From Gammaproteobacteria bacterium (GTDB lineage Bacteria > Pseudomonadota > Gammaproteobacteria > UBA4575): a stretch of 46,524 nucleotides of DNA. Numbering within the stretch: position 1 is the stretch's first letter; every line of letters begins with the position of its first letter. The notes beneath the pieces were generated by a model. The model was not told where the DNA came from and made no database searches. It saw only the letters and a list, made by a program, of their open reading frames with translations. The DNA lies in the NCBI GenBank assembly GCA_965221955.1, contig CBDCTA010000023.1:1-46524 (forward strand), given 5' to 3'. This document shows positions 10,631 through 23,375 of the stretch, in pieces. Made by a program: the position numbers and the translations under genes.

Positions 10631-10650
10631 TTTAAATATTTGCTTCGACC

Positions 10651-10800: not shown

Positions 10801-10805
10801 AGATT
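10753..10805 (+). repeat. Left terminal inverted repeat (53 bp)
   Basis: gtgagtacatggaagtacgaataagagctacaacaaggatgttgtatcagatt; 42/53 identical by manual alignment to the reverse complement of 23323-23375. Confidence 0.85.
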
Positions 10806-10823
10806 AAAGTCAGTCTAAATTAA

Positions 10824-10853
10824 AATGTCCGCTTTCGGCCAAAAGCGGTCATT
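10824..10853. repeat. 30-bp palindromic site 1 (form A)
   Basis: aatgtccgcttt cggcca aaagcggtcatt. Confidence 0.93.
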
Positions 10854-10905
10854 AACGCTATGGTTCATTCACAACACATGCAACGTAGCGGTTGGAACCA
10901 ACTTG

Positions 10906-11325
10906 TTAGTTTTTATTCTCACACGTTTGTTTAACTCTTTCTGCAGGGATCTTTAACTGGGCAAATAGGTATTCCTTAAAGGAGTCCAGATATTGTTGAG
11001 CGTCAATAGCCTTTTGCATACAAAGAAGCCACGCATCTCGCTCTGTTTCCCCAATAGCCAAATGTTTATGCACCCCAGGAATACTGATTCCGCCATAATG
11101 TTGGTGATAAAGTTTTGGGCCTCCCAGCCATCCACAGAGAAAGTATGTTAATTTTTTGCGTGATTCGGTTAAATCTTGTGGGTGCATTTCTCTGATTGTT
11201 TTTGCTTCAGGAAATGTATCCATGTTTGAGAAAAAATTTTCCACGAGACATGTGATGCCAGCAAGTCTACCCGCCGCATTGTAAGAGTTATCTCTTATGC
11301 CATAGCTGTGCTCATTAAATTTCAT
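10906..11325 (-). CDS. Group II truncated hemoglobin (trHbO-like)
   Basis: LVENFF..M, KLTYFLCGWLGGP..Y, H..LAIGETERDAWLLCM; start likely MKFNEH at 11325 (ORF track start 11397 overlaps the neighbour). Confidence 0.85.
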   Translation of the reverse strand: MKFNEHSYGIRDNSYNAAGRLAGITCLVENFFSNMDTFPEAKTIREMHPQDLTESRKKLTYFLCGWLGGPKLYHQHYGGISIPGVHKHLAIGETERDAWLLCMQKAIDAQQYLDSFKEYLFAQLKIPAERVKQTCENKN

Positions 11326-11365
11326 GGTTTTAATTATATCTCTACATGGAACATGTTGAGTTATT

Positions 11366-11683
11366 TCAGTCTGTATCAATGATGTGACGCTCTGCAAATT
11401 CTATTATTTCTCCACACTTTAAATCTTGAATGTGTTCAGGATTATCTTCTAGCTGCCCTAAGAATTTATTATCTTGTACTAATAGGATTTCAACCCACAA
11501 TTGCTCATTACTTGATATTTTAGGATTATCACTTTTAAAATTAAACATGAGCTTTACTTTATGACCTTTCTCTAGTGGTTCAATGACATCTTTTGAAGGT
11601 TTAGAAAATTTATGTGGAACCTCATCTACCAGCTTTTGTGCATCTTCAAGATTCCAACTTTTATCCATCACTGTTTCTCTCAA
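11366..11683 (-). CDS. Small protein, DUF2314/DUF2185-like
   Basis: EQLWVEI...FLGQLEDNP..IQDLKCGEIIEF...HI pattern; family call from memory of the motif. Confidence 0.55.
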   Translation of the reverse strand: MRETVMDKSWNLEDAQKLVDEVPHKFSKPSKDVIEPLEKGHKVKLMFNFKSDNPKISSNEQLWVEILLVQDNKFLGQLEDNPEHIQDLKCGEIIEFAERHIIDTD

Positions 11684-11726
11684 TTTTTAGGGCAAAAACA
11701 TAAATAGCTACTAATTACATAACGAT

Positions 11727-11756
11727 AATGTCAGTCTTGTGCCGTTAACGCTCATT
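11727..11756. repeat. Site 2 (degenerate form B)
   Basis: aatgtcagtctt gtgccg ttaacgctcatt. Confidence 0.6.
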
Positions 11757-11779
11757 AAACTATTTCTTTAAGAGTGCTC

Positions 11780-12112
11780 TTAGTTGAGTTGGACCCATCC
11801 ACGAATTAAATCAAAATATATGAATTCCGCACCAATTGACTCAACCCTACGAACGTCACCATTATTTGGCATGTCATATTCTTCCAAGCCTTCCAAAGCA
11901 AGTGCGTTAGCCATTGCGGATTTTGGCTGCCGCTGGCTGGGAAGCTGCTCGAGATGTAGCTCTTCTGCAGTCCAGATCATTCCATCTCGTTCCATAGGTG
12001 ATGCCTTCGCAAAATCTGCAGAGAGAAATACAGCAGATGTGCCAGCCATTTTTTTGTAGACAGATGCAATCATAAAGAGCTTGCCTAACCTAATAGTGAG
12101 ATATATGGACAA
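11780..12112 (-). CDS. Hypothetical protein
   Basis: 110-aa ORF in array orientation between sites 2 and 3; true start may be the internal M (MIASVY). Confidence 0.6.
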   Translation of the reverse strand: MSIYLTIRLGKLFMIASVYKKMAGTSAVFLSADFAKASPMERDGMIWTAEELHLEQLPSQRQPKSAMANALALEGLEEYDMPNNGDVRRVESIGAEFIYFDLIRGWVQLN

Positions 12113-12283
12113 ACGGAGATTAAGCTTTCCTAAGCTAAAGTTTCTTGTTCTACCTCAGCTAATTGTTGGTTTCAGGTATAGAAAGAATAAAAATTCAACA
12201 TTTATGGAGGATATTTGCACTTTTTAACCAACCTCTATCATATCTCCTGTGTGTAGCTGGCTAAAGTTTATTGAAATTCTATG

Positions 12284-12313
12284 AATGTCTGCTTTCGGCC
12301 AATAGCGGACATT
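12284..12313. repeat. Site 3 (form A)
   Basis: aatgtctgcttt cggcca atagcggacatt. Confidence 0.93.
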
Positions 12314-12338
12314 AACAATTATGAAATCTCTGCAATCC

Positions 12339-12614
12339 TTAAGTTAACAGAATAAATGCCATTAACCAGATGATTATCGAACCAAATAAAAAGAATGTTG
12401 TATTTATTCCTTTTTTTACCACTGATTTTCTGAATACAACAATACCCATGCTAATGGACGCAATAATGGGGAAACCAATACTGCTGAACAAACCAAAAGG
12501 TCCTGGGATCACACCCATGCCAAACGTTGCAGCTTCTTTAGGCATCAGCATAAAACCCGCTGATATAATAACCAAATAACAAACTGAGCTAATTAACTGA
12601 AGCTTCCATTCCAT
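12339..12614 (-). CDS. Small membrane protein (about 3 TM)
   Basis: Hydrophobic 91-aa ORF between sites 3 and 4. Confidence 0.65.
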   Translation of the reverse strand: MEWKLQLISSVCYLVIISAGFMLMPKEAATFGMGVIPGPFGLFSSIGFPIIASISMGIVVFRKSVVKKGINTTFFLFGSIIIWLMAFILLT

Positions 12615-12698
12615 GTGTAATCACAACCTTTATAGCTCAGAATCGACTATTATCTTGTTTAAATACATCTCTAACCTACTACCTCATAGGCAAACTAT

Positions 12699-12728
12699 AA
12701 TGTCCGCTTTGTGTTGAAAGCAGTCACT
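12699..12728. repeat. Site 4 (variant form B)
   Basis: aatgtccgcttt gtgttg aaagcagtcact; overlaps the stop codon of the OsmC-family gene. Confidence 0.8.
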
Positions 12729-13162
12729 CAAGCAGTGGTTATATTAGTTTTTAAATGTTTTTCTGATGTGAGTGTATTAGTAATTAGACAATTATTCTCT
12801 GCCTTTTCTAATATCTGCGCGGCTTTCTTCTCATCTTCTTGTGATTTAACTTTCAATGAGGCGTTGATGTGGATTTCTGTAAATTTAGTTTTACGATCTA
12901 CCATCTCTAATATGCCTTCAACATCACAAGATAATTCAGACCACTCTAATTTTGAGGCAGTAGCTATCGCGCGGAAGGTTAGTATCAAGCAGCTAGCCAC
13001 ACTTGCAACTAAAAGATCTTCTGGAGACCATTTATCTCCTGGTCCATCAAATTCTTTTGGTGCGGCAATATCGAGCTTTGTTAATTCACCTGATTGTATG
13101 TCGAGTGAACCCGTAGGTCGCCCATGTGCTTGCGCATGGTAATGGTGAGGAAACTTTTGCAT
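12728..13162 (-). CDS. OsmC/Ohr family protein
   Basis: PKEFDGPGDKWSPEDLLVASVASC ... KAENNCLITNTL, with two conserved Cys. Confidence 0.88.
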   Translation of the reverse strand: MQKFPHHYHAQAHGRPTGSLDIQSGELTKLDIAAPKEFDGPGDKWSPEDLLVASVASCLILTFRAIATASKLEWSELSCDVEGILEMVDRKTKFTEIHINASLKVKSQEDEKKAAQILEKAENNCLITNTLTSEKHLKTNITTA

Positions 13163-13216
13163 TTCTCGCTACCCTTTATCTGTTGCTCCGATGTTAAACA
13201 ATATTAGTTTCATTTA

Positions 13217-13246
13217 AATGTCCGTTTTCGGCCAATAGCGGATATT
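13217..13246. repeat. Site 5 (form A)
   Basis: aatgtccgtttt cggcca atagcggatatt. Confidence 0.9.
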
Positions 13247-13292
13247 CATGACAAATACACCTTCAAATAATATCCTGGAAGTTATGCATTGA

Positions 13293-14459
13293 CTATAAAC
13301 TATTAGCTTGACGTATCGCGATACGTGTAAATATAGGTCCGATTAATTCAAAAAAGATTGTAGTGCTAATGACTAAAGATATCAGCACTTGTTTATGCTC
13401 TGGAAAATAGTTGGATGCAACTAGCGCCATACCAATGGCAACACCTGCCTGAGGTAATAAAGCAACTCCCATCCAATTTTTAACAGTTTGATCAGACTTG
13501 CTTAATTGCCCGCCAACTCTTGCACCGATGACTTTTCCTATGCTTCTACTAAGTATATATACGATTCCAATCAGTCCAATGTCTGCAATCATTTTTAATT
13601 CAAGTGTAGCCCCTGCCAATACAAAGAAAATTACCATAAACGGCCATTCAATATTCTCAATTTCATGAAAAGCGTAGTCGTGATGCTTAGCAAAATTTGC
13701 AACGATTGCACCCATTACAATTGAAGCAATTAGAAAAGATACATCAAGCCAAAGTGCCAACCCTCCACAGATAAATACCAGGCCAAGCGCTTCTGTTAAT
13801 ATAGGCTCACCAGGTTTCAGTCTTCCCGTTAAATAGGCAGCAGGAAATCCGAGCAAGACTCCTAGAATAACAGCTCCACCAATATCTTTTAATGCTATGA
13901 CAATTAATGGACTGTCTGAGATCTCTCCACTAATTGACGTGGCTACTGCAACCCCTAAACCAAATAATATTAGCGCCCATGCATCATCCAAAGCGACAAT
14001 TGAAATTAGTAAATTACTAAATGGACTTTTATCATTAGATTCCATTACTACATCTAACGTAGCTGCTGGAGCAGTTGCACTCGCAATACAACCTAGCAGT
14101 ATGGATAGCTCTATTGGCAAACCGAGCCACATAAGGCCTATGGTCACAATGACTACTGTGAATACAGCAGCGCTTATTGAGATGGTAAGAATATTTTTTA
14201 TTCCGTGCGTGAGAGATTCTCTAGTGAGCTTTCCTCCTATCAAAAAACCAACCATTAATAGAGTCATCTCAGCAATAATTTCAAATTGTTGAGTAAAAAT
14301 TGGTGGAATAATATTGAAAGCTTCCTTCCCAATTAAGATACCAAATAACAAAAGAAGCGTAACACGTGGTAAAAATGTTCGACGGCCAAGAGTACTTATT
14401 ACTTGCCCAAAAAGAAGAATACCACCAAGTGATAAAAGAAATTGGTAGGCTGATTCCAT
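13293..14459 (-). CDS. Cation:proton antiporter (CPA/Na+/H+ exchanger family)
   Basis: About 12 TM; ASATAPAAT, VALDDA, FFVLAGA, LLPQAGVAIG motifs. Confidence 0.88.
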   Translation of the reverse strand: MESAYQFLLSLGGILLFGQVISTLGRRTFLPRVTLLLLFGILIGKEAFNIIPPIFTQQFEIIAEMTLLMVGFLIGGKLTRESLTHGIKNILTISISAAVFTVVIVTIGLMWLGLPIELSILLGCIASATAPAATLDVVMESNDKSPFSNLLISIVALDDAWALILFGLGVAVATSISGEISDSPLIVIALKDIGGAVILGVLLGFPAAYLTGRLKPGEPILTEALGLVFICGGLALWLDVSFLIASIVMGAIVANFAKHHDYAFHEIENIEWPFMVIFFVLAGATLELKMIADIGLIGIVYILSRSIGKVIGARVGGQLSKSDQTVKNWMGVALLPQAGVAIGMALVASNYFPEHKQVLISLVISTTIFFELIGPIFTRIAIRQANSL

Positions 14460-14486
14460 TTCACTTTTTATTCTAACAAGTTTCTA

Positions 14487-14516
14487 AATGTCCGCTTAGG
14501 GCCGTTAGTGGTCATT
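14487..14516. repeat. Site 6 (form B)
   Basis: aatgtccgctta gggccg ttagtggtcatt. Confidence 0.88.
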
Positions 14517-14542
14517 TTGAAGCTTTGTTTTGAAGATTCCAA
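14514..14542 (-). promoter_or_regulatory. Putative sigma70-like linker promoter
   Basis: Minus strand TTGGAA-17 bp-CAAAAT. Confidence 0.4.
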
Positions 14543-14569
14543 CTTTGTTTCTCCTTAAATTATTTTAAT

Positions 14570-14599
14570 TATGTCCGCTTTCGGCCAATAGCGGACATT
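14570..14599. repeat. Site 7 (form A)
   Basis: tatgtccgcttt cggcca atagcggacatt. Confidence 0.95.
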
Positions 14600-14623
14600 T
14601 ATAAAACTAAACATTTATTCTTA

Positions 14624-14839
14624 TTATGGACGTTTTACACCATCACAATATTCATTAACTTTTGAAGTTAATCCTTGTATATCACATTTAGTTTCTAGAT
14701 TTTTTTCAAGTGAAATAATAAAAGGATACACAGTATCAATTTCATATTGAGGTGGACTACAGCCCATACACCAGTAATCATGTCTAAATTCAGCATTACC
14801 TTTATAAGATTCACGAAAATCGAAGTAGTTTTTGACTCC
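14624..14839 (-). pseudogene. 3' remnant of a cassette gene
   Basis: Open frame GVKNYFDFRESYKGNAEFRHDYWCMGCSPPQYEID...EYCDGVKRP* ending about 25 bp from site 7, blocked upstream by an in-frame TAA. Confidence 0.4.
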
Positions 14840-14972
14840 TTATATATACATACTAATACCTATGAATTACATCAGCTTTTTTATTCCAGTCAGTGTAAGT
14901 GGCCTCCCATCTTTTTCAATCGAATATGTAACTTCAGAGGTTGATAAAGATCAACTTTGACCTTACTTAAGG

Positions 14973-15776
14973 CTAACAGTTTGGCCTCTTGCCTTTTCCT
15001 CGTGCTTTTTTATAGGACAATAATGCCTGCGGCATGCGCGCATTTAAATCATTAATCCGAGATTGATTTGCTGGATGTGTGGACAGAAATTCAGGTGGTT
15101 GCTCACTACCTTGTTTAGACATGTTTTGCCACAATAAAACACTTTCACGAGGATCAAAACCTGCCATAGCCATATAGTCTAAACCCAAGATATCAGCTTC
15201 ACTTTCTTGCCCTCGCCCATAAGGCATCAATACGCCATATTGAGCACCTACACCAAGCAATCCCACTAAACGTTGTTTACCGGGTGTAGTTGCGCCTGCC
15301 ATAACTTCCACTAATTTTAAGCTTGCGCCTGTCGCATAAGCTGCAGATACACGTGCATTTGCATGTTCTGCAAGTACATGTGCTACCTCATGAGCAATAA
15401 CAGTAGCCAATTGATGTTGATTTTTTGTTACTTCCAATAATCCGGTATACACACCAATTTTGCCGCCCGGTAAAGCAAAAGCATTAACTGCCTTGTCTTG
15501 AAATACAATCACTTCCCATTGTGTATTTAGTCTTACTTCACGAGTAATTGCACTTGCTATACAACTCACATATCGATTTATTATTGCGTTTTTAGATTGT
15601 GGTGTTTTTTTCTTTAGATCTTCAAAAGCCGCAACGCCCATTTTATCCATTTGTTCTGCAGGGATAAGATGCAGTTGTGATCGACCAGTGGGCGAAGTCG
15701 CACAAGAATATATAGAAAGAATTAGTAAGAAAATTAATACAAGATATGTACTCAACGTACCTTTCATTACAAACAA
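14973..15776 (-). CDS. M48 family metallopeptidase (lipoprotein-like)
   Basis: Lipobox-like YSC, NAFALPGGKIGVYTGLL, AHEVAH (HExxH), ESEAD, FLSTHP. Confidence 0.92.
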   Translation of the reverse strand: MFVMKGTLSTYLVLIFLLILSIYSCATSPTGRSQLHLIPAEQMDKMGVAAFEDLKKKTPQSKNAIINRYVSCIASAITREVRLNTQWEVIVFQDKAVNAFALPGGKIGVYTGLLEVTKNQHQLATVIAHEVAHVLAEHANARVSAAYATGASLKLVEVMAGATTPGKQRLVGLLGVGAQYGVLMPYGRGQESEADILGLDYMAMAGFDPRESVLLWQNMSKQGSEQPPEFLSTHPANQSRINDLNARMPQALLSYKKARGKGKRPNC

Positions 15777-15777
15777 A

Positions 15778-16128
15778 TTAAGCGCTTAGTTTTTGAAATA
15801 CTTCGGCATGATATTTTAACCGTACATGCAGTTCTCTAGTTGGGTCCTCCAGGATATTACCAGTTAAAAACATTTCATCTTCATCATACTCACCTACTAA
15901 TTTGAGAATAAATTCCTCTAGTTTCCCAAATATTGGATTATATACACCATGATAGTGCTTTATATTAATAGTAGCATTGAAATTATTTCCCTTTAGATCA
16001 TAACTACCAACATAAAAATAGTTGTTATCACCCCCCAATATTTTCTTTTTCTCTAGAACGACAATTCCACCTCCTTCTGCGCTCATTTTTGAAACGAATT
16101 CTAGAGACCACAACTGCTCTAATGCCAT
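15778..16128 (-). CDS. GrlR-like small beta-barrel protein
   Basis: LWSLEF.S....GGGIVVL....ILGGD..YFY.GSY resembles the GrlR family pattern. Confidence 0.55.
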   Translation of the reverse strand: MALEQLWSLEFVSKMSAEGGGIVVLEKKKILGGDNNYFYVGSYDLKGNNFNATINIKHYHGVYNPIFGKLEEFILKLVGEYDEDEMFLTGNILEDPTRELHVRLKYHAEVFQKLSA

Positions 16129-16164
16129 TTTACAATTACCATGTTCACAATCATTGGTATCTAA

Positions 16165-16743
16165 CTAAGCGCTTTTAACTTCGATTGATCGCTTATTGCT
16201 TTTAGCCTCAATTGTTTTAGGTAGGGAAATATTTAGTACGCCCTTGGAATAGTTTGCATCAACTTTATTGTTATCCACACCGTTAGGCACACGAAATGTG
16301 CGTTGAAATGAGCCATAACTCCTTTCGCTTACGTGATAATTTTTCTTCTTTTCCTCACGCTCCGCTTTTTTCTCACCTTTTACAGTCAACGAATCATCAT
16401 TGAGAGACACTTCAATATCTTTTTCAGTCATGCCCGGCAATTCAACTGCTATCTCATAAGAATCATCACTCTCACTGACATCCACTCGTGGTGTTATGTC
16501 GAGTTTTGGCAACTTCAAATGACGTTCAAGATCTGCCATTGGATAGGTCCACCCTTTGCCAAATACTTTAGGTAAGCTTGGCCAATCTTCAGCAAAACGA
16601 TCAAAAATATTGTCCACTTCTTCACGCAATGTTACTAAAGGCGATATGACATCACCTTTTTTAGCAACAGACTTTCTAGATCTGGTCTTTCTCTTAGATG
16701 TTTTCTTCTTTTTTACAGGTACTTTTTTTGCTCTGCGCGCCAT
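16165..16743 (-). CDS. Small heat-shock protein (Hsp20/alpha-crystallin)
   Basis: PRVDVSE, VELPGM, LTVKGEK, ERSYGSFQRTF, A.YSKGVLNISLPK; start MARRAKK at 16743 with GGAG RBS. Confidence 0.92.
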   Translation of the reverse strand: MARRAKKVPVKKKKTSKRKTRSRKSVAKKGDVISPLVTLREEVDNIFDRFAEDWPSLPKVFGKGWTYPMADLERHLKLPKLDITPRVDVSESDDSYEIAVELPGMTEKDIEVSLNDDSLTVKGEKKAEREEKKKNYHVSERSYGSFQRTFRVPNGVDNNKVDANYSKGVLNISLPKTIEAKSNKRSIEVKSA

Positions 16744-16814
16744 TACTGCTTCTCCTTTTGATTGTTTGTAACTAATAATTTTGTCGTAATTTAGGGTTAC
16801 AGCATTGATCTTAG

Positions 16815-17060
16815 TCAAATTAATACATTGTTTTTCCATAAAACGAATAAATGACAATTTAATAACATTTCCATCATTGGCACGCACACCTTAGATATTT
16901 CTGATTTTTCATTTTCAGGTGGAGTAACACTAGGTGGAAGTGCGGGTATTACATTCATTGGAGATATTTCTACAGGTACAGAATCCGAGCTTGGTTGATC
17001 TGTGAAATAAACTTCCCCATTAGGCCTACATGTCTTTACAATTGATGCGCACAGGCGCAA
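16815..17060 (-). pseudogene. DUF4124-like fragment
   Basis: KTCRPNGEVYFTDQP followed by a Pro-rich linker; no signal peptide, TTG start, appears truncated. Confidence 0.4.
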
Positions 17061-17120
17061 TGACGCGACACACCGAGTGAACCTGTCTGAGAAAATCTTT
17101 AGTATTTTTGAAATTTTGAA

Positions 17121-17150
17121 AATGTCCGCTTTCGGCCAATAGCGGACATT
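17121..17150. repeat. Site 8 (form A, consensus)
   Basis: aatgtccgcttt cggcca atagcggacatt. Confidence 0.96.
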
Positions 17151-17596
17151 TACTTTTTCTGAATGTCATGTTCCAAGATAGCCAAAATGGCAGCTTCTAC
17201 TCTCGAGTCATCGTTCATATGAAATATATTATTCTTTTCTCTATGCTCAGTTATTTCAATGACACCATCAACATCATAGACATTATATGAAGGACGATCA
17301 TTCTTTCTTCCTAAGGACAAATCATCAAGATAATATGGACGTGTACCAATTCTTTGCCCGGTTACTTGATTAACTTTCTTATTGTTTAAATATATTTTGA
17401 ATACTGCTTCTGTGAGATAGTAATCAACTGATACGCTAATTTTATCGCGATCATTTTCTTCAGCTATTTCATCAAAGAACTTTGGTACTCGAGAATCATC
17501 AGCTAAATCGAAACTAGACTCGGGGAAACACCCAAATAGCGTAATAACCAAGAAGATTATTAAATATATTTTAATATTTAATTTTATATAAAACAC
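17150..17596 (-). CDS. Putative lipoprotein
   Basis: Hydrophobic N-terminus with LFGC lipobox; fills the interval between sites 8 and 9. Confidence 0.75.
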   Translation of the reverse strand: MFYIKLNIKIYLIIFLVITLFGCFPESSFDLADDSRVPKFFDEIAEENDRDKISVSVDYYLTEAVFKIYLNNKKVNQVTGQRIGTRPYYLDDLSLGRKNDRPSYNVYDVDGVIEITEHREKNNIFHMNDDSRVEAAILAILEHDIQKK

Positions 17597-17615
17597 TATA
17601 AGTATGACTTAAAGA

Positions 17616-17645
17616 AATGTCCGCTTTGGGTCGTTAGCAGTCATT
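17616..17645. repeat. Site 9 (form B, consensus)
   Basis: aatgtccgcttt gggtcg ttagcagtcatt. Confidence 0.96.
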
Positions 17646-18210
17646 CAATAGATTTATTGCCGTAATATGGCACTAAGCATTCATTTTTCATTGCATCTAA
17701 TGCATAGGAAAGGCCTTTGAGGCTGTAAGAGTACTCATGTAACCCGTTTTTATCACGATATCTAACATTTATAATTTTTGCATTTATCATTTCTTTAATG
17801 AGCCATCTTGATCTAACTGTGCTGATTAAATTTGGTGAGTAATCATTAACAAACCATTCTAAATTTAGTGGCGCTTGTTCATCTAGCTGAATAACCATCG
17901 GCACAACTTCTGGATCTATTAATTCAATAGGTTGGCCATTATTTAAATGTATATCATATCCTTCGTGTTGACTTATTCCTGAACTACAATAAATTTGCAG
18001 TATTGGGAGATTATTTGGATTCTTAAGTTGTGGTACTGCAATCATCGCCTGATTAGGGAAAGCAGGATTTAGCATTAATGACCAATCAGTTTGCGTCGCC
18101 CAATCATTTTCAAGACCAGGATCAACAGGTTGATTATTTTGATTAGTCTCAGTGCTTGCAGAACATTGGAATGCACACATAAAAAGAACAAAAAATAATA
18201 GTATTTTCAT
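17641..18210 (-). CDS. Secreted hypothetical protein
   Basis: Signal peptide MKILLFFVLFMCAFQCSA; TGA stop lies inside site 9. Confidence 0.78.
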   Translation of the reverse strand: MKILLFFVLFMCAFQCSASTETNQNNQPVDPGLENDWATQTDWSLMLNPAFPNQAMIAVPQLKNPNNLPILQIYCSSGISQHEGYDIHLNNGQPIELIDPEVVPMVIQLDEQAPLNLEWFVNDYSPNLISTVRSRWLIKEMINAKIINVRYRDKNGLHEYSYSLKGLSYALDAMKNECLVPYYGNKSIE

Positions 18211-18227
18211 ATATCCCTTAATTAATT

Positions 18228-18257
18228 TATGTCCGCTTTGGGTCGTTAGCAGTCATT
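18228..18257. repeat. Site 10 (form B)
   Basis: tatgtccgcttt gggtcg ttagcagtcatt. Confidence 0.95.
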
Positions 18258-18527
18258 CTAGACTTTGACTGTTTTTGCAATGTCATAGTATTTACCAGTC
18301 AAGTCCGTGCTCAATTTTCCAGTTTCAACCGCATTTAAAAATTCTTCTGGAAACTTATCTTTACCAAGAATAAATAATTGACTATTAATATCCTGCAAAT
18401 ATCTATCTCTAACTTTTTCAATTTTATTCTCATCATGCTCCATCCATGCGGCTTTTTTATCGTTATAGAAACATAATTCGTTGAGTAGCTTCATTAGCTT
18501 TCTTTTCTTGAAATAGCTAATAATCAT
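18258..18527 (-). CDS. Hypothetical protein
   Basis: 89-aa ORF exactly filling the interval between sites 10 and 11. Confidence 0.7.
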   Translation of the reverse strand: MIISYFKKRKLMKLLNELCFYNDKKAAWMEHDENKIEKVRDRYLQDINSQLFILGKDKFPEEFLNAVETGKLSTDLTGKYYDIAKTVKV

Positions 18528-18537
18528 TTATCAAAGG

Positions 18538-18567
18538 AATGTCCACTTTGGGTCGTTAGCAGTCATA
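18538..18567. repeat. Site 11 (form B)
   Basis: aatgtccacttt gggtcg ttagcagtcata. Confidence 0.92.
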
Positions 18568-18593
18568 TTAAGTTTATGTTTCATTGATTCCAA
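18565..18593 (-). promoter_or_regulatory. Putative sigma70-like linker promoter
   Basis: TTGGAA-17 bp-TAATAT. Confidence 0.45.
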
Positions 18594-18596
18594 CCT

Positions 18597-18626
18597 TATG
18601 TCTCCTTTCGGCAAATAGCAGTCATT
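18597..18626. repeat. Site 12 (degenerate form A)
   Basis: tatgtctccttt cggcaa atagcagtcatt. Confidence 0.82.
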
Positions 18627-19095
18627 CAGTAAGTGAAACTTTTTCACCATTTTTGAATAAGATATCAGTGCTTCCATCTCTATTTCGATCAAGCATTTCT
18701 AGTACGTCGCCTTGTTCATTCTCGACAACATTTACTATTTGCTCAAAATACCCATCCCCATCTATGTCACTAACAGAGATAGCATCACCATCTGAGAATC
18801 TCACTACGACATAGCTATCAGACAATGTAACCGAGTAGTCTTCATCGTAGATATAAAGCATTTTAGGGCCACCAGCTTTCTTTGGCCCATATAATTTCAA
18901 ATCGCTAATTTTGGTAGTGATCAAATCACTCAGTTGATAATCGAGGTGCATAGAACTTGAAAGCTCTTTTTTATTACGCTCGCTTAACTCTTGCCAGTTA
19001 ACATCATTTTGATTTTTACCATATATCCAGCCACCAACCGCAGATATACCTGAAACTGAAACTAAAACTAGTGCAATTATATTGATTGTTTTCAT
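18622..19095 (-). CDS. Membrane-anchored/secreted hypothetical protein with DxDGDG-type motifs
   Basis: N-terminal TM; DIDGDG and DRNRDG motifs; stop inside site 12. Confidence 0.72.
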   Translation of the reverse strand: MKTINIIALVLVSVSGISAVGGWIYGKNQNDVNWQELSERNKKELSSSMHLDYQLSDLITTKISDLKLYGPKKAGGPKMLYIYDEDYSVTLSDSYVVVRFSDGDAISVSDIDGDGYFEQIVNVVENEQGDVLEMLDRNRDGSTDILFKNGEKVSLTE

Positions 19096-19104
19096 TTGAT
19101 CTGC

Positions 19105-19134
19105 GATGTCCGCTTTGGGTCGTAAGCAGACATT
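19105..19134. repeat. Site 13 (form B)
   Basis: gatgtccgcttt gggtcg taagcagacatt. Confidence 0.93.
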
Positions 19135-19153
19135 TTAGAACAATATGTATGAA

Positions 19154-19284
19154 ATTTTCAGAAGCGTCTGAAACTTCTCACGCCTAATTAACGCAGTAAC
19201 TTACGATGCTTTCCTACCTCACACTGTGACATTAGGATACTGCAATGAATAACAATGAACTTCATTGTGACACATTTTGGTCAC
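19154..19284 (+). repeat. 131-bp imperfect direct repeat, copy 1
   Basis: attttcaga..taattaacgcagtaacttacgatgctttcctac..acttcattgtgacacattttggtcac; aligns to 20460-20590. Confidence 0.75.
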
Positions 19285-19319
19285 TGCAACCCATTGTCTA
19301 AGAACACTTCACTCAAAAG

Positions 19320-20312
19320 TTAATAGCCATTATTTAACATCCAGTTATTCAATGGGAGTACCAATACTTTTAAATGCTCGTGATTGACTGTTTTAGCAAG
19401 TACTTTTTCAGGATAAGGATAGACGGCCCATGCACGATCAAAGTACTCTTGAGCTTCTTCTTTGTTTGGTGAACTTTCTAAAAGTTTCGCCCACTTAACA
19501 AACAAAGCACAACCAAGTGTAAAACGTGCACCACCATAGTTCATGCGTGTTAATGCTTCCTCAGCATATTCAATTGCTCCATCAATGTCTTGGTAAGTAA
19601 AAAGTAAAAAATTTGCATAATTTCCCCATATCCATGCAGAGTTAGGATTATTCTCAAGCTGATTTCTATAAGCTGTATCAGTACTATCATAATCACCCAT
19701 CTTCCAATATGTGCTTGTAATACCTTCTAAAGCTCCTGCATAAGCTTTTTCATTATTAGTCCCTTTTTCAATAACATTTTGGTAGCGTTCTAATGCTTCA
19801 GAATATTTCCCTTGTATATCTAAAAGCCGTGCCCAGTTAATTTCCAGCCAAGGTGATTCTGTGCCAATACGCTCTGCACTCGTTAGTGATAAGTCTGCAT
19901 AACCAAACTCTTTCATCGCAATATAAACGGATGCTAATAAAACATATGCGTCTGCGTAATGAGGCTCGATTTCTAATGCCCTTTTGACAGATTTTTCAGC
20001 AGCGAGCAGGCTCTCTTCTCTATAATTATCATAATTAATATAGCCACTCATTAAGTGGAGCCTTCCATACTCTCTATGTACAGGCGCAAATTGCTCGTCT
20101 TTAGCAAGAATTACTTCGAGCATAATATACGCCTTTTGGAGATCCTCTCTCCTTCCAGTGTAAGAATTTATAAGTATTCGCGCAGCATCATAGCTTTCAA
20201 ATAATTCAGGACTTTTTTCTCGATATTTCTGATCGATTGGGGAATTCCAAAATTCAGCACTTGCTGAAGTGACGCATAGAATTAATAGTAATACTAAGAA
20301 TTTACCAGCCAT
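19320..20312 (-). CDS. Secreted tetratricopeptide-repeat protein
   Basis: Signal peptide; repeated A...Y..ALE..P..A.A patterns. Confidence 0.82.
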   Translation of the reverse strand: MAGKFLVLLLILCVTSASAEFWNSPIDQKYREKSPELFESYDAARILINSYTGRREDLQKAYIMLEVILAKDEQFAPVHREYGRLHLMSGYINYDNYREESLLAAEKSVKRALEIEPHYADAYVLLASVYIAMKEFGYADLSLTSAERIGTESPWLEINWARLLDIQGKYSEALERYQNVIEKGTNNEKAYAGALEGITSTYWKMGDYDSTDTAYRNQLENNPNSAWIWGNYANFLLFTYQDIDGAIEYAEEALTRMNYGGARFTLGCALFVKWAKLLESSPNKEEAQEYFDRAWAVYPYPEKVLAKTVNHEHLKVLVLPLNNWMLNNGY

Positions 20313-20459
20313 AAATACTCCAACCTAAATTAGGCTACTAGAAGAATAATAAGTCCAACTCATAAAGATTTAAAGATTTGTATAAAAAAGTTTAAAAATA
20401 CGACTGGTGGATGAATTACAGATAAGCGTTTTCAAAGTTTATATAAACGAGATACGAGG

Positions 20460-20590
20460 ATTTTCAGATTTTTCTAGAAATACTCACATTTAATTAACAC
20501 AGTGACTTACGATGTTTCCCTACTCACAACTGAGTCAATAACGCACAATAATGAGTATGAGTGTACTTCAGTGTGACACAATTTTGGCAC
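20460..20590 (+). repeat. 131-bp imperfect direct repeat, copy 2
   Basis: attttcaga..taattaacacagtgacttacgatgtttccctac..acttcagtgtgacacaattttggcac. Confidence 0.75.
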
Positions 20591-20597
20591 AACTTTA

Positions 20598-20627
20598 AAT
20601 ATCCGCTTTCGGCCAATAGTGGTCATT
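20598..20627. repeat. Site 14 (form A)
   Basis: aatatccgcttt cggcca atagtggtcatt. Confidence 0.9.
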
Positions 20628-20631
20628 ACGT

Positions 20632-21009
20632 TTATGCGAGTTTCTTTGCTACAAATGGAGACAATAATAATGACATGCCTAACAATAAATACTTGAATAT
20701 TGGTGTACCAATTAACTCAAAGCCTTTATGCCCAATAAAAGGTAACAACAGAACACTACCAAGCATCCAGATAGCAAAAGCTAACGTGAAACAAGCTAAT
20801 ATAATCTTAAACACTCTAAAATTACCATTCTTCTTGTTTGAGCCTTTGCTAAGCAATACACCAATTATAGCTATGCCCATCAAAACAATGCCAAATGTAG
20901 AATATAATAAGACATTTACTTGTTCTGGATATTTAAAATTTAGGAACGAAATCATTAACAGATAAGAAACTGCCAATGCAGCAATAAATATCAGATTTCT
21001 TTTATTCAT
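20632..21009 (-). CDS. Membrane protein (about 4 TM)
   Basis: Hydrophobic ORF filling the interval between sites 14 and 15. Confidence 0.75.
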   Translation of the reverse strand: MNKRNLIFIAALAVSYLLMISFLNFKYPEQVNVLLYSTFGIVLMGIAIIGVLLSKGSNKKNGNFRVFKIILACFTLAFAIWMLGSVLLLPFIGHKGFELIGTPIFKYLLLGMSLLLSPFVAKKLA

Positions 21010-21020
21010 TACAGAAACAT

Positions 21021-21050
21021 AATGTCCGCTTTGGGTCGTTAGCAGTCATT
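21021..21050. repeat. Site 15 (form B, consensus)
   Basis: aatgtccgcttt gggtcg ttagcagtcatt. Confidence 0.96.
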
Positions 21051-21076
21051 TTAAATTTGTAGCTCATTGAATCCAA
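21048..21076 (-). promoter_or_regulatory. Putative sigma70-like linker promoter
   Basis: TTGGAT-17 bp-TAAAAT; last 3 nt of the -10 lie in site 15. Confidence 0.5.
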
Positions 21077-21093
21077 CCATATTTGTTTTGAAT

Positions 21094-21123
21094 TATGTCT
21101 GCTTTCGGCCAATAGCGGACGTG
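21094..21123. repeat. Site 16 (form A)
   Basis: tatgtctgcttt cggcca atagcggacgtg. Confidence 0.9.
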
Positions 21124-21154
21124 TAATACTCTCCTTTAATTGGCACTATTAATT

Positions 21155-21397
21155 TTACAAATTTTTGTTTTTTCGTGAACCCTCAAACAAAATAAGTAAT
21201 GCCATAGCCGCCCAAATAATGGTTAATAAGATAAATGCTCCACGGTTAGAATTGAAGCATGCTATATCATCACTTCTCCAATTGGGTAAGCTAATGCAAA
21301 AATCATTGTAATCGTCATAGGAAAGAAAAATAACAAAAACGTACACTGCTACAGCGAAAAGAAATCCTATAATATTTCTTTTCTTAGGAATCTTCAT
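21155..21397 (-). CDS. Small membrane protein (2 TM, loop with two Cys)
   Basis: 80-aa ORF between sites 16 and 17. Confidence 0.7.
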   Translation of the reverse strand: MKIPKKRNIIGFLFAVAVYVFVIFLSYDDYNDFCISLPNWRSDDIACFNSNRGAFILLTIIWAAMALLILFEGSRKNKNL

Positions 21398-21415
21398 AAT
21401 CTATAAATCTTTCAA

Positions 21416-21445
21416 AATGTCCGCTTTGGGTCGATAGCAGTCATT
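21416..21445. repeat. Site 17 (form B)
   Basis: aatgtccgcttt gggtcg atagcagtcatt. Confidence 0.95.
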
Positions 21446-21471
21446 TTGAACGTTTGTTTTGAAGTTTCCAA
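21443..21471 (-). promoter_or_regulatory. Putative sigma70-like linker promoter
   Basis: TTGGAA-17 bp-CAAAAT. Confidence 0.4.
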
Positions 21472-21498
21472 CCTGACTTCCCCTAAATTGATCTTAAT

Positions 21499-21528
21499 TT
21501 TGTCCGCTTTCGGCCAACAGCGGACATT
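21499..21528. repeat. Site 18 (form A)
   Basis: tttgtccgcttt cggcca acagcggacatt. Confidence 0.92.
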
Positions 21529-21534
21529 CATGCG

Positions 21535-21894
21535 TCATTGATCAGATGTGTTTGCAGGACGAAACTCTTCAAAAATCTGCTTGTAGTGTTTGGCCTTATC
21601 TTCGTTTATCTCAAAATACCAACAACCTTTTAAATAACAAAGCGCGAGTACATGAGCAGCCCTATAGTTATTTAAATCTCCTGCTTTAATCAGCCATTCA
21701 CGTGCTTCATCCATCTCATCTATTGTAGGAGGTGTTTGGCTATCTACACGTTCTGCAACACCTAACCACAAATTATACATCGCTTCTGAATTGCCTTGAT
21801 TAGCAAGATTAATTAAATGCTTTGTATCTTTATCATCATGAGAATTACTCGCTAATGGAATACAAATTAAAATTAGAAATAAAATAAATTTCAT
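21535..21894 (-). CDS. Secreted Sel1-like repeat protein
   Basis: Signal peptide; LANQGNSEAMYNL, AREWLIKAG, LALCYLKG, KAKHY. Confidence 0.75.
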   Translation of the reverse strand: MKFILFLILICIPLASNSHDDKDTKHLINLANQGNSEAMYNLWLGVAERVDSQTPPTIDEMDEAREWLIKAGDLNNYRAAHVLALCYLKGCWYFEINEDKAKHYKQIFEEFRPANTSDQ

Positions 21895-21914
21895 CTAACT
21901 AATCTAAAATTACT

Positions 21915-21944
21915 AATGTCCGCTTTGGGTCGTAAGTGGTCATT
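21915..21944. repeat. Site 19 (form B)
   Basis: aatgtccgcttt gggtcg taagtggtcatt. Confidence 0.93.
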
Positions 21945-21970
21945 TTAAGTTTGAAGTTTATTGATTCCAA
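21942..21970 (-). promoter_or_regulatory. Putative sigma70-like linker promoter
   Basis: TTGGAA-17 bp-TAAAAT. Confidence 0.5.
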
Positions 21971-21987
21971 CACTTTGCACCCCTAAA

Positions 21988-22017
21988 TTTGTCTGCTTTC
22001 GGCCAATAGCGGACATT
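21988..22017. repeat. Site 20 (form A)
   Basis: tttgtctgcttt cggcca atagcggacatt. Confidence 0.92.
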
Positions 22018-22022
22018 CACAG

Positions 22023-22487
22023 CTAGAGGACAATATCTTTCTCCATCACGGATACTGAATGACCTTGCCACTCGGTACGTTCTCGCACAACCCAATTAAG
22101 TTTAGAATAAAATTCTTCTGAATCGGGCGTGTAAAGAAATAATTTGCTCACTCCTAATCGTGCTGCTTTATCCTCAATAGCAAAAACAAGCTTTTTACCA
22201 ACCCCCTTTTTTCTATGCTTTGTATCTACATACAAACCCGCCAACCATGGACTTAGGTTTGGGCGTGATCCAAGATCATTTGTCTTTAAAGCAATCATCC
22301 CTATTGCTTTATCGTTTTCAAATGCTACTAAACAAAGTGGTATTTTCTCTTTATTGGATCTCTCCAGCATTAATTGCTCGACATCTGAAAGTGTTCTTTC
22401 AGGATGAAGATTTGACCATTCGTTATATGACCAGTTAGCAAGAGTTGGAATGACGTTTTTATGATCTGCTAAGTACTCTATTTCCAT
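22023..22487 (-). CDS. GNAT family N-acetyltransferase
   Basis: PWLAGLYVDTKHRKKGVGKKL (acetyl-CoA motif A), LFLYT...FYSKLNW. Confidence 0.9.
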   Translation of the reverse strand: MEIEYLADHKNVIPTLANWSYNEWSNLHPERTLSDVEQLMLERSNKEKIPLCLVAFENDKAIGMIALKTNDLGSRPNLSPWLAGLYVDTKHRKKGVGKKLVFAIEDKAARLGVSKLFLYTPDSEEFYSKLNWVVRERTEWQGHSVSVMEKDIVL

Positions 22488-22530
22488 TGCTTGTTATTGA
22501 AACAATTATATGTGTAAAAACTGTCAGTTG

Positions 22531-22560
22531 AATGTCCGCTTTGGGTCGTTAGCGGTCATT
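22531..22560. repeat. Site 21 (form B)
   Basis: aatgtccgcttt gggtcg ttagcggtcatt. Confidence 0.95.
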
Positions 22561-22612
22561 AAACTATGTTGTTTTGAGATTTCCAACCTGATTTCCCTTT
22601 AATGAATTAAAT

Positions 22613-22642
22613 TATGTCAGCTTTCAGTCAATAGCGGACATT
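22613..22642. repeat. Site 22 (form A variant)
   Basis: tatgtcagcttt cagtca atagcggacatt. Confidence 0.85.
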
Positions 22643-22653
22643 ATTGGATTACT

Positions 22654-22863
22654 CTAGTCGCTAATTTTTTGCTTCTTCCTAAAATACCATTCAGCAACAA
22701 ACCAGATAGCAACTCCAATAATTACTAAATAAAGATTATCGAGAAATCCCGCATAAGTTCTTACAGATTCACAGCCAGAATCATCGCATACAATTTCACT
22801 AGATTTAATGAATACTCCTATACAGATAAGAATAAATATTAGTAATCTGCTTAGAACTTTCAT
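22654..22863 (-). CDS. Small membrane protein (2 TM, CDDSGC loop)
   Basis: 69-aa ORF filling the interval between sites 22 and 23. Confidence 0.68.
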   Translation of the reverse strand: MKVLSRLLIFILICIGVFIKSSEIVCDDSGCESVRTYAGFLDNLYLVIIGVAIWFVAEWYFRKKQKISD

Positions 22864-22880
22864 TACTTTAAAGTTTGTTC

Positions 22881-22910
22881 AATGTCCGCCTTGGGTCGTT
22901 AGCAGACATT
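22881..22910. repeat. Site 23 (form B)
   Basis: aatgtccgcctt gggtcg ttagcagacatt. Confidence 0.93.
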
Positions 22911-22936
22911 TTAAGTTTATAGATCATTGAATCCAA
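22908..22936 (-). promoter_or_regulatory. Putative sigma70-like linker promoter
   Basis: TTGGAT-17 bp-TAAAAT. Confidence 0.5.
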
Positions 22937-22953
22937 CACATTGTGTCCATTGT

Positions 22954-22983
22954 TTTATCCGCTTACGACCATAAGCGGACATC
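22954..22983. repeat. Site 24 (A orientation, hybrid core)
   Basis: tttatccgctta cgacca taagcggacatc. Confidence 0.85.
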
Positions 22984-22994
22984 TGTTATTAGTT

Positions 22995-23264
22995 TTATTG
23001 ATTGAAAATCTTATAGCAAACATAGGCTGCTATTAACCATATATAGAAAGCTAATAAAGAGACGTTATAAATCTTACGTGCTTTTTGGCCTGTTTCATTT
23101 AATGCATCGGTTTTAAAAATTGGCAAAATATTAATGACAGCTAAACCTTTTTGTTCATCGACATTATTTAAAACAGTCAGGTAAGCACTGAAATATGAAA
23201 CAGCGATAATTATTAATGAAATAGCAAATAGTCCTATTAATATCGTTGAAATTAAATCAATCAT
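22995..23264 (-). CDS. Small membrane protein (2 TM)
   Basis: 89-aa ORF filling the interval between sites 24 and 25. Confidence 0.68.
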   Translation of the reverse strand: MIDLISTILIGLFAISLIIIAVSYFSAYLTVLNNVDEQKGLAVINILPIFKTDALNETGQKARKIYNVSLLAFYIWLIAAYVCYKIFNQ

Positions 23265-23274
23265 AGATTAGATA

Positions 23275-23304
23275 AATGTCCGCTTTGGGTCGATAGCAGT
23301 CATT
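23275..23304. repeat. Site 25 (form B)
   Basis: aatgtccgcttt gggtcg atagcagtcatt. Confidence 0.95.
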
Positions 23305-23322
23305 CTATTAAAAGAAATATTG

Positions 23323-23375
23323 AATCTGAAGCAACCTCCTTGTTACATCTCATGTTCGCCCATCCATGTACTCAC
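23323..23375 (-). repeat. Right terminal inverted repeat (53 bp)
   Basis: Reverse complement gtgagtacatggatgggcgaacatgagatgtaacaaggaggttgcttcagatt matches 10753-10805. Confidence 0.85.

What the first reader, a model, noticed from the sequence alone, without database searches (positions are those of the whole stretch)
10824..23304. Sites have 12-6-12 tyrosine-recombinase geometry and alternate in orientation
Seen: inverted arms of 11-12 bp flank an asymmetric 6-bp core. Form A has core CGGCCA (reverse complement TGGCCG) and form B has core GGGTCG, so A is essentially B flipped. The order is ABABABA-ABBBABABABABABABAB(B), alternating except at two places. Most genes have B at their 5' end and A at their 3' end. 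Known: 11-6-11 is the geometry of dif/Xer sites, and pdif modules in Acinetobacter plasmids are genes between alternately oriented dif-like sites. The arm sequence here does not match the XerC/XerD consensus. Inference: a pdif-module-like logic with a different recombinase specificity, where A-A or B-B exchange would excise or insert gene+linker units and the A/B core mismatch would suppress inversion, explaining the uniform gene orientation.
Basis: partly seen in the sequence, partly recalled or inferred. Interest (0 to 1): 0.85.

Follow-up and report, generated by a model that had tools for sequence, protein, structure and literature searches.

The report
Palindrome-bounded gene cassette arrays
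A 12.5-kb stretch of small genes is cut into swappable units by a conserved 28-base palindromic site that comes in two versions, which looks like a gene-cassette system different from integrons and has no recombinase gene of its own.

Summary
The sites are real. The genome holds 177. There are two types: A (core CGGCCA) and B (core GGGTCG). The arm spacing never varies. Genes lie between A and B on the opposite strand, with B at the 5' end and A at the 3' end. B-linker-A composites of 101-111 bp join the units.

Two pairs of 99%-identical contigs, apparently strain variants, differ by whole units, and the breakpoints fall in the sites. A related species has a different array at the same locus, and two have none. 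Homologous cassettes at different loci are alike only from site to site. The same two cores occur in another proteobacterial class, where A is clearly an inverted B; in this genome that reading is ambiguous.

It is not an integron: no IntI and no attC signature. It is not REP/RAYT, not dif-like (a canonical dif lies elsewhere), and does not match the published Ssn motif. No recombinase is encoded nearby or co-occurs.

My best reading is a pdif-like or integron-like cassette system served by an unidentified trans-acting enzyme. The module logic is supported. The enzyme and the chemistry are not shown.

The parts
10641..10750 (+). About 108-nt hairpin-rich repeat ('part 1') that ends in an A-like half-site (about 10733-10750)
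   Evidence: Other copies at C3:28538, C17:40248, C22:41256 and C22:168241. In G010 it flanks the array on both sides, inverted.
10751..10824 (+). Left 'X' platform element next to the first A site
   Evidence: Inverted partner at 23304-23369 (I1). X pairs bracket arrays and single modules genome-wide.
10825..10852 (+). Site A
   Evidence: 2 mismatches. Breakpoint against C14.
11728..11755 (+). Degenerate B-like site
   Evidence: family D1. Above the 6-mismatch limit.
12285..12312 (+). Site A
   Evidence: Breakpoint against C14 at 12315.
12700..12727 (+). Site B (5 mismatches)
13218..13245 (+). Site A
14488..14598 (+). Composite B (14488-14515), 55-nt linker, A (14571-14598)
   Evidence: Folds as a long hairpin.
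17122..17149 (+). Site A
   Evidence: 0 mismatches
17617..17644 (+). Site B
   Evidence: 0 mismatches
18229..18256 (+). Site B
18539..18625 (+). Composite B (18539-18566), 31-nt linker, A (18598-18625)
19106..19133 (+). Site B
20599..20626 (+). Site A
21022..21122 (+). Composite B, 45-nt linker, A
21417..21527 (+). Composite B, 55-nt linker, A
21916..22016 (+). Composite B, 45-nt linker, A
   Evidence: The only linker that passes the promoter scan on the gene strand.
22532..22641 (+). Composite B, 54-nt linker, A
22882..22982 (+). Composite B, 45-nt linker, A (A has 6 mismatches)
23276..23303 (+). Last site B
   Evidence: Breakpoint against C14 at 23272.
23304..23397 (-). Right 'X' element (inverted copy) plus outer B-like half-site (23370-23397)
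23398..23505 (-). Second, linker-like segment plus another inverted X copy
   Evidence: read from the sequence
10906..23264 (-). About 22 cassette ORFs, all on the minus strand: globin, DUF2314, OsmC, Na/H exchanger, M48 peptidase, HSP20, GNAT, TPR, and several with no family
   Evidence: Two tested ORFs have no close homologue in 36 relatives.
9193..10110 (-). xerD, a housekeeping neighbour. Not shown to act on the sites.
   Evidence: TIGR02225, 402 bits against a cut-off of 329.6. dsbC lies next to it.

Best explanation
The 28-bp sites are the borders of mobile gene cassettes in a chromosomal cassette-array system that is neither an integron nor a Xer/dif system. Each unit is one gene, sometimes a few, with a B site (core GGGTCG) at its 5' end and an A site (core CGGCCA) at its 3' end. 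In the wider family A is an inverted copy of B with 2-3 core changes, so a unit is bracketed by inverted sites, as a pdif module is. Units are strung head to tail through 31-55-nt linkers. B-linker-A forms a composite, in most copies 101-111 bp long. The whole array sits between inverted copies of an 'X' element of about 70 nt. I infer that units are gained, lost and replaced by conservative recombination inside the sites between partners of the same core type (A with A, B with B). I also infer that the enzyme is encoded elsewhere in the genome and acts in trans. Shown: the sites, their fixed geometry and grammar, strain-level and species-level turnover with breakpoints in the sites, site-to-site limits of cassette homology, wide taxonomic spread, and the absence of the known dedicated recombinases. 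Inferred: that the exchange is site-specific rather than RecA-driven, the like-with-like rule, and the kind of enzyme.
For: Sites: 24 in the window, 177 in the genome, 0 expected. Spacing is invariant. Grammar: 125 of 130 adjacent site pairs lie on the same strand. There are 60 A-to-B intervals of 235-2159 bp and 31 B-to-A composites of 59-83 bp start to start. In 68 of 89 same-strand intervals the longest ORF is on the strand opposite the sites, with a median coding fraction of 0.86. Turnover: C14 and C23 are 99.0-99.5% identical in their flanks. C14 has an extra 1059-bp A-A unit and 1.5 kb where C23 has 11 kb. The breakpoints are at 10824-10848, 12315 and 23272, which is in or within 4 nt of sites. 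C10 and C29 are 98.7-99.7% identical in their flanks, yet their arrays (1.4 kb against 4.0 kb) are wholly different from terminal site to terminal site. At the same locus G010 has a different 5-site array and G001 and G019 have none. Unit of homology: C5:749-1508 and C26:69642-70402 are 86% alike, and C5:3077-3642 and C17:16509-17077 are 77% alike. In both pairs the likeness starts at the A site and stops at the B site, in different surroundings. Spread: a 22-nt exact match occurs in at least 106 stretches from Gamma- and Alphaproteobacteria, Nitrospina and other MAGs at 35-67% GC. It is in 14 of 14 genomes of the same genus and in 44 of 401 sampled genomes of the phylum. The same two cores flank genes in the same way in another class. 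No cis enzyme: among 993 ORFs around the sites in 106 loci no family recurs in more than 5 loci, and the top two are GGDEF and MBL-fold proteins.
Against: No recombinase was identified. IntI, Y1 transposase and IS110 are not found in this genome. Serine recombinases are in 3 of 14 same-genus genomes and the third integrase in 2 of 14. The assembly is 96.6% complete. No excision product or junction was seen: the laid runs are contigs, and every joint has only 22-35 nt on one side, which is just the repeat. The one mappable crossover (C23 site 10825 against C14 sites 8376 and 7317, sequences) falls between positions 19 and 25 and needs extra base changes. That fits homologous exchange or gene conversion at least as well as a central-core crossover. 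There is no compensatory covariation within sites or between B and A of a composite, so a folded-DNA substrate has no support beyond simple complementarity. The array order rests on a metagenome assembly across repeats.
Confidence: 0.6

Rival explanations
1. REP/BIME-like extragenic palindromes. The hairpins serve transcripts or chromosome structure (3' stabilisers, terminators, protein-binding sites). The arrays vary only because repeats give RecA portable homology after ordinary gene transfer.
For: The copies are dispersed and intergenic, about 180 per 2.7 Mb. A follows stop codons within 0-53 nt. Paired inverted copies occur, as in BIMEs and REPINs. The mapped crossover is off-centre. No enzyme was found.
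Against: REP families are known (established knowledge) to be specific to a species or genus and tied to a RAYT. Here a Y1 transposase is found in 1 of 14 same-genus genomes and not in G000, and the 28-mer is conserved across classes and across 35-67% GC. B sits at gene 5' ends with only 10-44 nt before the start codon. Cassette homology stops at the sites on both sides. 28 bp of homology is very short for RecA. There is no T-run after A on the gene strand, and terminator-like hits are not enriched (8 against 7.0 expected).
Confidence: 0.2
2. True Xer substrates: host XerC/XerD recombine the sites, as proposed for Acinetobacter pdif modules.
For: The geometry is of the 11-6-11 kind. There are two arm types, ATGTCCGCT and ATGACTGCT, placed inversely around genes in L132. 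XerD and a XerC-like gene are the only tyrosine recombinases present in all five site-bearing or related genomes checked. No enzyme is encoded in cis. One array lies next to xerD in G000 and G010.
Against: The genome's own dif (ACTTCGCATAATATATATTATGTTAAAT at C4:59807) is canonical, and the A and B arms share only 3-5 of 11 positions with its arms (my alignment by eye). A high-GC host with A/B-like sites also keeps a canonical dif, and a filamentous prophage has used it. Site-free relatives also have XerC and XerD (G017). The other arrays are not next to xer genes.
Confidence: 0.12
3. Targets of a small site-specific single-strand DNA nuclease, like the Neisseria NTS/dRS3 repeats cut by the GIY-YIG enzyme SsnA. 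These would shape what incoming DNA is integrated after transformation.
For: Chenal et al. 2025 (PMC11893778; I read Results and two Methods sections) describe hairpin repeats of about 30 nt, in hundreds of copies, clustered around genes, in many phyla. G000 has one single-domain GIY-YIG ORF of 82 aa. Homologues are in 13 of 14 same-genus genomes and in all other site-rich genera sampled. They were not found in the site-free genera g3, g4 and g10.
Against: The published SRM search motif gives 7 hits in G000 (3-7 in shuffles) and none on an A or B site. The GIY-YIG gene has no A or B site within 1.5 kb. Its nearest solved relatives are UPF0213 proteins, a family the paper does not mention. Homologues also occur in genomes without sites (g5, G047). 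A nuclease alone does not explain units bounded at both ends.
Confidence: 0.1
4. An integron remnant: a cluster of attC sites without an integrase (CALIN).
For: Arrays of small, diverse, co-oriented, tightly packed ORFs. The composite is in the attC size range and folds as an imperfect hairpin.
Against: No match to the integron-integrase model over its cut-off (best 83 bits against 265). 0 of 31 composites have a complementary RYYYAAC...GTTRRRY pair. Isolated units carry half a composite at each end rather than a whole site at the 3' end.
Confidence: 0.02
5. Cargo flanked by terminal inverted repeats and moved in trans by a DDE transposase (a mobile insertion cassette or MITE).
For: In the wider family the two sites are inverted repeats around the gene. 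The arrays themselves lie between inverted X elements.
Against: The units abut conserved linkers rather than random targets, and I saw no target-site duplications at the unit ends I read. The discrete A and B cores and the fixed spacing are not typical of transposon ends.
Confidence: 0.04

Closest known systems
Acinetobacter pdif sites and dif modules (XerC/XerD)
   Same: 28-bp sites with two arms around a short centre. Genes lie between sites. In the wider family the flanking sites are inverted. The same module appears in different contexts. No recombinase is carried in the module (PMC9455709, passages read).
   Different: The arms are unlike dif. The system is chromosomal, with about 180 sites per genome. 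There are two fixed core classes tied to the gene's 5' and 3' ends. Conserved linkers and an X platform are present. It occurs in several classes rather than one genus. Xer binding is untested.
Integron cassettes with attC sites
   Same: Arrays of small, diverse, co-oriented ORFs. Content varies between strains. Composite sites of about 100 bp are imperfect palindromes. Many ORFs have no known family.
   Different: No IntI and no AAC/GTT boxes. There are many small arrays and single units across the chromosome rather than one platform. Each unit carries a site at both ends.
Neisseria dRS3/NTS repeats (NIME arrays) and the Ssn nuclease family
   Same: Short palindromic hairpin repeats in hundreds of copies, clustered around and between genes, with orientation. 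NTS-like repeats are reported in distant phyla (PMC11893778).
   Different: The sequence does not fit the published SRM motif. The stem is 9 bp with a 10-nt centre, against a shorter loop. The units between the repeats here are whole genes. An Ssn-clade enzyme is not shown.
REP/BIME/REPIN elements with RAYT transposases
   Same: Extragenic palindromes, often in inverted pairs 60-80 bp apart, many copies per genome.
   Different: RAYT is not found. The sequence is conserved across classes. There is a strict link to gene ends, and whole genes turn over at the sites.

Membership tests
Integron (IntI/attC) | Integron integrase gene | tested here: not met
   TIGR02249: best hit 83 bits against a cut-off of 265, and that hit is XerD.
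Integron (IntI/attC) | attC with complementary R'' (RYYYAAC) and R' (GTTRRRY) boxes | tested here: not met
   0 of 31 composites, against 0-1 in 20 shuffles. IntegronFinder's own model could not be run.
Integron (IntI/attC) | Array of co-oriented, mostly promoterless small ORFs | tested here: met
   Promoter-like hits are not enriched (35 against 48 expected).
pdif / dif modules | Sites resemble chromosomal dif, with XerC and XerD arms | tested here: not met
   The genome's own dif was found at C4:59807. The A and B arms share 3-5 of 11 positions with its arms (aligned by eye).
pdif / dif modules | Two arms around a short centre, fixed 28-bp length | tested here: met
pdif / dif modules | Modules flanked by inversely oriented sites | tested here: inconclusive
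   In G000: 6 mismatches unflipped against 7 flipped. In L132: 3 flipped against 8 unflipped.
pdif / dif modules | XerC/XerD bind and recombine the sites | not testable with these tools
   The genes are present. Binding needs a bench test.
REP/RAYT | Cognate Y1 (RAYT) transposase in the genome | tested here: not met
   PF01797: none in G000 (96.6% complete), and 1 of 14 same-genus genomes.
REP/RAYT | Dispersed extragenic palindromes | tested here: met
   177 sites on 19 of 29 contigs.
NTS/SRM-Ssn | Repeat fits the SRM search motif of Chenal et al. | tested here: not met
   7 hits, none on a site; 3-7 in shuffles.
NTS/SRM-Ssn | Single-domain GIY-YIG nuclease of the Ssn clade (cd10448) | tested here: inconclusive
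   An 82-aa GIY-YIG ORF is present. Its nearest solved relatives are UPF0213 proteins. CDD could not be run.
NTS/SRM-Ssn | Nuclease gene flanked by its repeats | tested here: not met
   No A or B site near C28:159142.

The most novel reading that the evidence does not exclude
A third kind of bacterial gene-cassette system, besides integrons and pdif modules. Genes are bracketed by an inverted pair of one 28-bp site whose 5' and 3' copies carry different fixed cores. They are stored in many small chromosomal arrays inside a palindromic platform. They are exchanged across proteobacterial classes by a conserved host-encoded enzyme that has not yet been recognised as a recombinase, or by XerCD acting on a site unlike dif.
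Probability: 0.35. Interest if true: 0.9.

Novelty: new variant of a known kind. Interest (0 to 1): 0.8.

Why it matters
If the sites are recombination sites, this is a widespread route by which marine and soil Proteobacteria store and trade small adaptive genes without an integron. It would be invisible to integron finders. It would also pose a clear question: which enzyme reads a 28-mer that is conserved from 35% to 67% GC genomes? It gives a natural test bed for how two core variants impose gene orientation and block inversion. For genome annotation, it explains a class of strain-specific islands and of assembly breaks in these MAGs.

Tried and rejected
- **Integron:** rejected.
- **RAYT/REP, IS110 and resident serine recombinases:** none tracks the sites.
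- **The 431-aa integrase at C29:2613:** found in 2 of 14 same-genus genomes.
- **Serine recombinases:** I recalled that the arms look somewhat like a resolvase-binding motif, and that the central dinucleotide differs between A (GC) and B (GT). Complete genomes with 44 sites each (G001, G014) have no resolvase-family gene, so I dropped this.
- **Recombinase encoded next to the sites:** none recurs in 106 loci.
- **Viral contigs:** 60 stretches match. A group of up to 16 related contigs (16 share the commonest ORF family; 15 were aligned to L138) turned out to be host flank beside a filamentous prophage (Zot-family assembly protein, Rep_trans) integrated at a canonical dif about 2 kb from the sites. 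That says nothing about the enzyme.
- **Plasmids:** no match.
- **Rfam:** one hit well below its gathering threshold (SNORA63, E=0.29).
- **Linker as a promoter:** on the gene strand the 73-class linker reads TTGGAA-17-TAAAAT, but only 1 of 8 window composites passes the scan and the region is not enriched. This stays a lead only.
- **Folded-DNA substrate:** the composites fold (z -3.1 to -4.5), but I found no covariation.
- **Sequencing runs:** no RNA holder is listed. The joints in the laid contigs have sides of 22-35 nt and are repeats, not evidence of recombination.
- **Literature:** six searches found no description of this site. That covers open-access text only. I could not see the supplements of PMC11893778, which list genomes and motifs and may bear on the Ssn rival.

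Full report
**The sites**

The region holds a family of 28-bp palindromes. A degenerate pattern gives 26 matches in the window against none in 100 shuffles. A Hamming scan finds 24 sites between 10825 and 23303, all in one strand orientation. Two degenerate copies lie at 11728 and 23370. There are two types:
- A: ATGTCCGCTTTCGGCCAATAGCGGACAT
- B: ATGTCCGCTTTGGGTCGTTAGCAGTCAT

Genome-wide there are 177 sites, 89 A and 88 B. Every core base is at least 88% conserved within its type. The distance between the arms does not vary: 154 arm pairs have the 28-bp spacing, against 10-26 at each of 12 other spacings.

**Grammar**

125 of 130 neighbouring site pairs lie on the same strand. Two kinds of interval dominate:
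- 60 A-to-B intervals of 235-2159 bp.
- 31 B-to-A intervals of 59, 71-73 or 82-83 bp start to start.

The long intervals are filled by ORFs on the opposite strand. This holds for 68 of 89 intervals, with a median coding fraction of 0.86. Of the 21 exceptions, 16 have a coding fraction below 0.6. So a typical gene has B 10-44 nt before its start and A 0-53 nt after its stop.

The short intervals are conserved linkers with a shared ATTGAWTCCAAC box. B-linker-A can fold as one long hairpin.

The window's ORFs encode a globin, DUF2314, OsmC, a Na/H exchanger, an M48 peptidase, HSP20, a GNAT, a TPR protein and several proteins with no family. The flanks are housekeeping genes: xerD-dsbC on one side and lptG-lptF-pepA on the other.

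**Is A an inverted B?**

In this genome the question is open. The consensus sites differ at 6 positions unflipped and 7 flipped. Both have the same left arm on the same strand. Asymmetric A sites carry the B-like arm on the same side as B does (19 against 3).

Other evidence favours inversion. The array ends are mirror images: A-like half-site, X, A on the left, and B, inverted X, B-like half-site on the right. In genomes of another class (L132, L133) the same two cores occur with clearly asymmetric arms. There A is 3 mismatches from B when flipped and 8 when not. The gene lies between them as it does here.

**Turnover**

The assembly contains apparent strain variants.
- **C14 and C23 (the window).** C14 matches the window at 99.0-99.5% over 10.8 kb and 4.3 kb of flank. 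C14 has an extra 1059-bp A-A unit, and 1.5 kb where the window has 11 kb. The alignments end at 10824-10848, 12315 and 23272, in or within 4 nt of sites.
- **C10 and C29:123675-138671.** The flanks are 98.7-99.7% alike, and the arrays are entirely different from terminal A to terminal B.
- **Other species at the same locus.** G010 has a different array of five sites. G001 and G019 have no sites there, and in G019 only 180 bp separate the two flanking genes.
- **Cassettes in relatives.** Two window cassettes have no close homologue in 36 relatives.
- **Cassettes within the genome.** Two cassette pairs at different loci are 86% and 77% alike from the A site to the B site and unrelated outside. 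One copy sits between linkers and the other between X elements or other DNA.

This is the strongest evidence that the sites delimit the mobile unit.

**Spread**

A 22-nt exact match of B occurs in at least 106 stretches of the species collection. These include Thiotrichales and other gammaproteobacterial MAGs, Woeseiaceae, Lysobacter, Billgrantia, Caulobacteraceae, other Alphaproteobacteria and Nitrospina, at 35-67% GC. The sites are in 14 of 14 genomes of the same genus, patchy in the family, and in 44 of 401 sampled genomes of the phylum. In an alphaproteobacterial locus they separate co-oriented 1-kb genes in the same relative orientation.

**Search for the enzyme**

- **Tyrosine recombinases in this genome.** There are four tyrosine-recombinase loci: XerD twice (the two alleles), a XerC-like gene, and one 431-aa integrase. 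That integrase is found in only 2 of 14 same-genus genomes.
- **Integron integrase.** No match reaches the model's cut-off.
- **Other recombinase families in the genus.** Y1 transposases are in 1 of 14 same-genus genomes, resolvase-family genes in 3 of 14, and IS110 in 2 of 14. The complete genome G010, with 89 sites, has only XerC, XerD and one weak integrase.
- **Neighbouring genes.** No protein family recurs next to the sites across 106 loci.
- **dif.** The genome has a canonical dif at C4:59807, to which the A and B arms bear no real likeness. A high-GC host with A/B-like sites also has a canonical dif, and a filamentous prophage has used it.

So XerC and XerD are the only site-specific recombinases common to the site-rich genomes, but nothing in the sequence says they read these sites.

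**Comparison with known systems**

- **Integron.** Excluded as a family: no IntI, and 0 of 31 composites have attC boxes.
- **REP/RAYT.** Excluded as a family: no RAYT, and the sequence is conserved across classes.
- **pdif modules** (PMC9455709, passages). They share the logic but not the defining likeness to dif.
- **Neisseria NTS/dRS3 and the Ssn nucleases** (PMC11893778; Results and two Methods sections). These are hairpin repeats in hundreds of copies around genes, cut as single strands by a small GIY-YIG enzyme. The published motif does not hit the sites. The genome's 82-aa GIY-YIG protein is UPF0213-like and is not flanked by sites. Its distribution only partly follows the sites.

**Weak points**

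- No recombination event was seen directly.
- The one crossover I could place lies at positions 19-25 of the site and needs extra changes.
- There is no covariation to support a folded substrate.
- The contig-level read laying was uninformative.
- The array order depends on a metagenome assembly.

I therefore hold the cassette-boundary reading at about 0.6, and keep RecA-driven exchange at REP-like repeats as the main rival.

Noticed in passing
window 10751-10824 and 23304-23369; also C17:16414-16508/17154-17215, C2:192610-193201, C29:312322-312939: An 'X' element of about 70 nt with two small hairpins brackets every array and many single-gene units as an inverted pair. Half-sites lie on its outer sides. 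An almost empty platform (X, one hybrid-looking site, inverted X) lies at C22:45680-46000.
   Followed up: partly
window 10641-10750: A separate repeat of about 108 nt, made of stacked hairpins with CATGGA-type loops. At least five other copies are in the genome. In G010 it flanks the homologous array on both sides in inverted orientation. No significant Rfam match; the one hit overlapping the nearby X element (SNORA63, window 10766-10872, E=0.29, 28.6 bits against a gathering score of 90) is taken as chance.
   Followed up: partly
G000 contigs C14 and C23, C10 and C29, C11 and C26: The assembly holds pairs of contigs 97-99.8% alike that differ mainly in the cassette arrays. They look like co-assembled strains (contamination is estimated at 4.3%). 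Arrays appear to be where the assembly breaks.
   Followed up: partly
G000:C4:59807-59834: Canonical dif site. A/B sites lie 5 kb away (C4:64595-65790). In an unrelated high-GC host the sites also lie 2-3.5 kb from dif (L138).
   Followed up: no
L138 (viral contig), 5803-5830 and 5830-13436: A filamentous (inovirus-like) prophage with Zot-family and Rep_trans genes is integrated at a canonical dif. The phage part varies between otherwise identical host flanks in up to 16 related contigs (15 aligned).
   Followed up: partly
G000:C28:159142-159387: An 82-aa single-domain GIY-YIG (UPF0213-like) gene. Homologues are present in all site-rich genera sampled and were not found in three site-free genera, but they also occur in some genomes without sites.
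   Followed up: partly
G000:C26:76340-91280: A 15-kb segment with a 544-aa large serine recombinase. The allelic contig C11 has 4.4 kb at that place. Orthologues are in G010, G011 and G019 only.
   Followed up: no
G000:C22:1-1926: A tandem repeat with a 339-bp period at a contig end, seen in the self-comparison.
   Followed up: no
window 14571-17122: One 2.5-kb A-A unit holds four co-oriented ORFs: an M48 peptidase, a 116-aa ORF, an HSP20-domain protein and an 81-aa ORF. So units can be small operons.
   Followed up: no
window 11000-24000: The array is 34-38% GC over most of its length against about 39-45% in the flanks.
   Followed up: no
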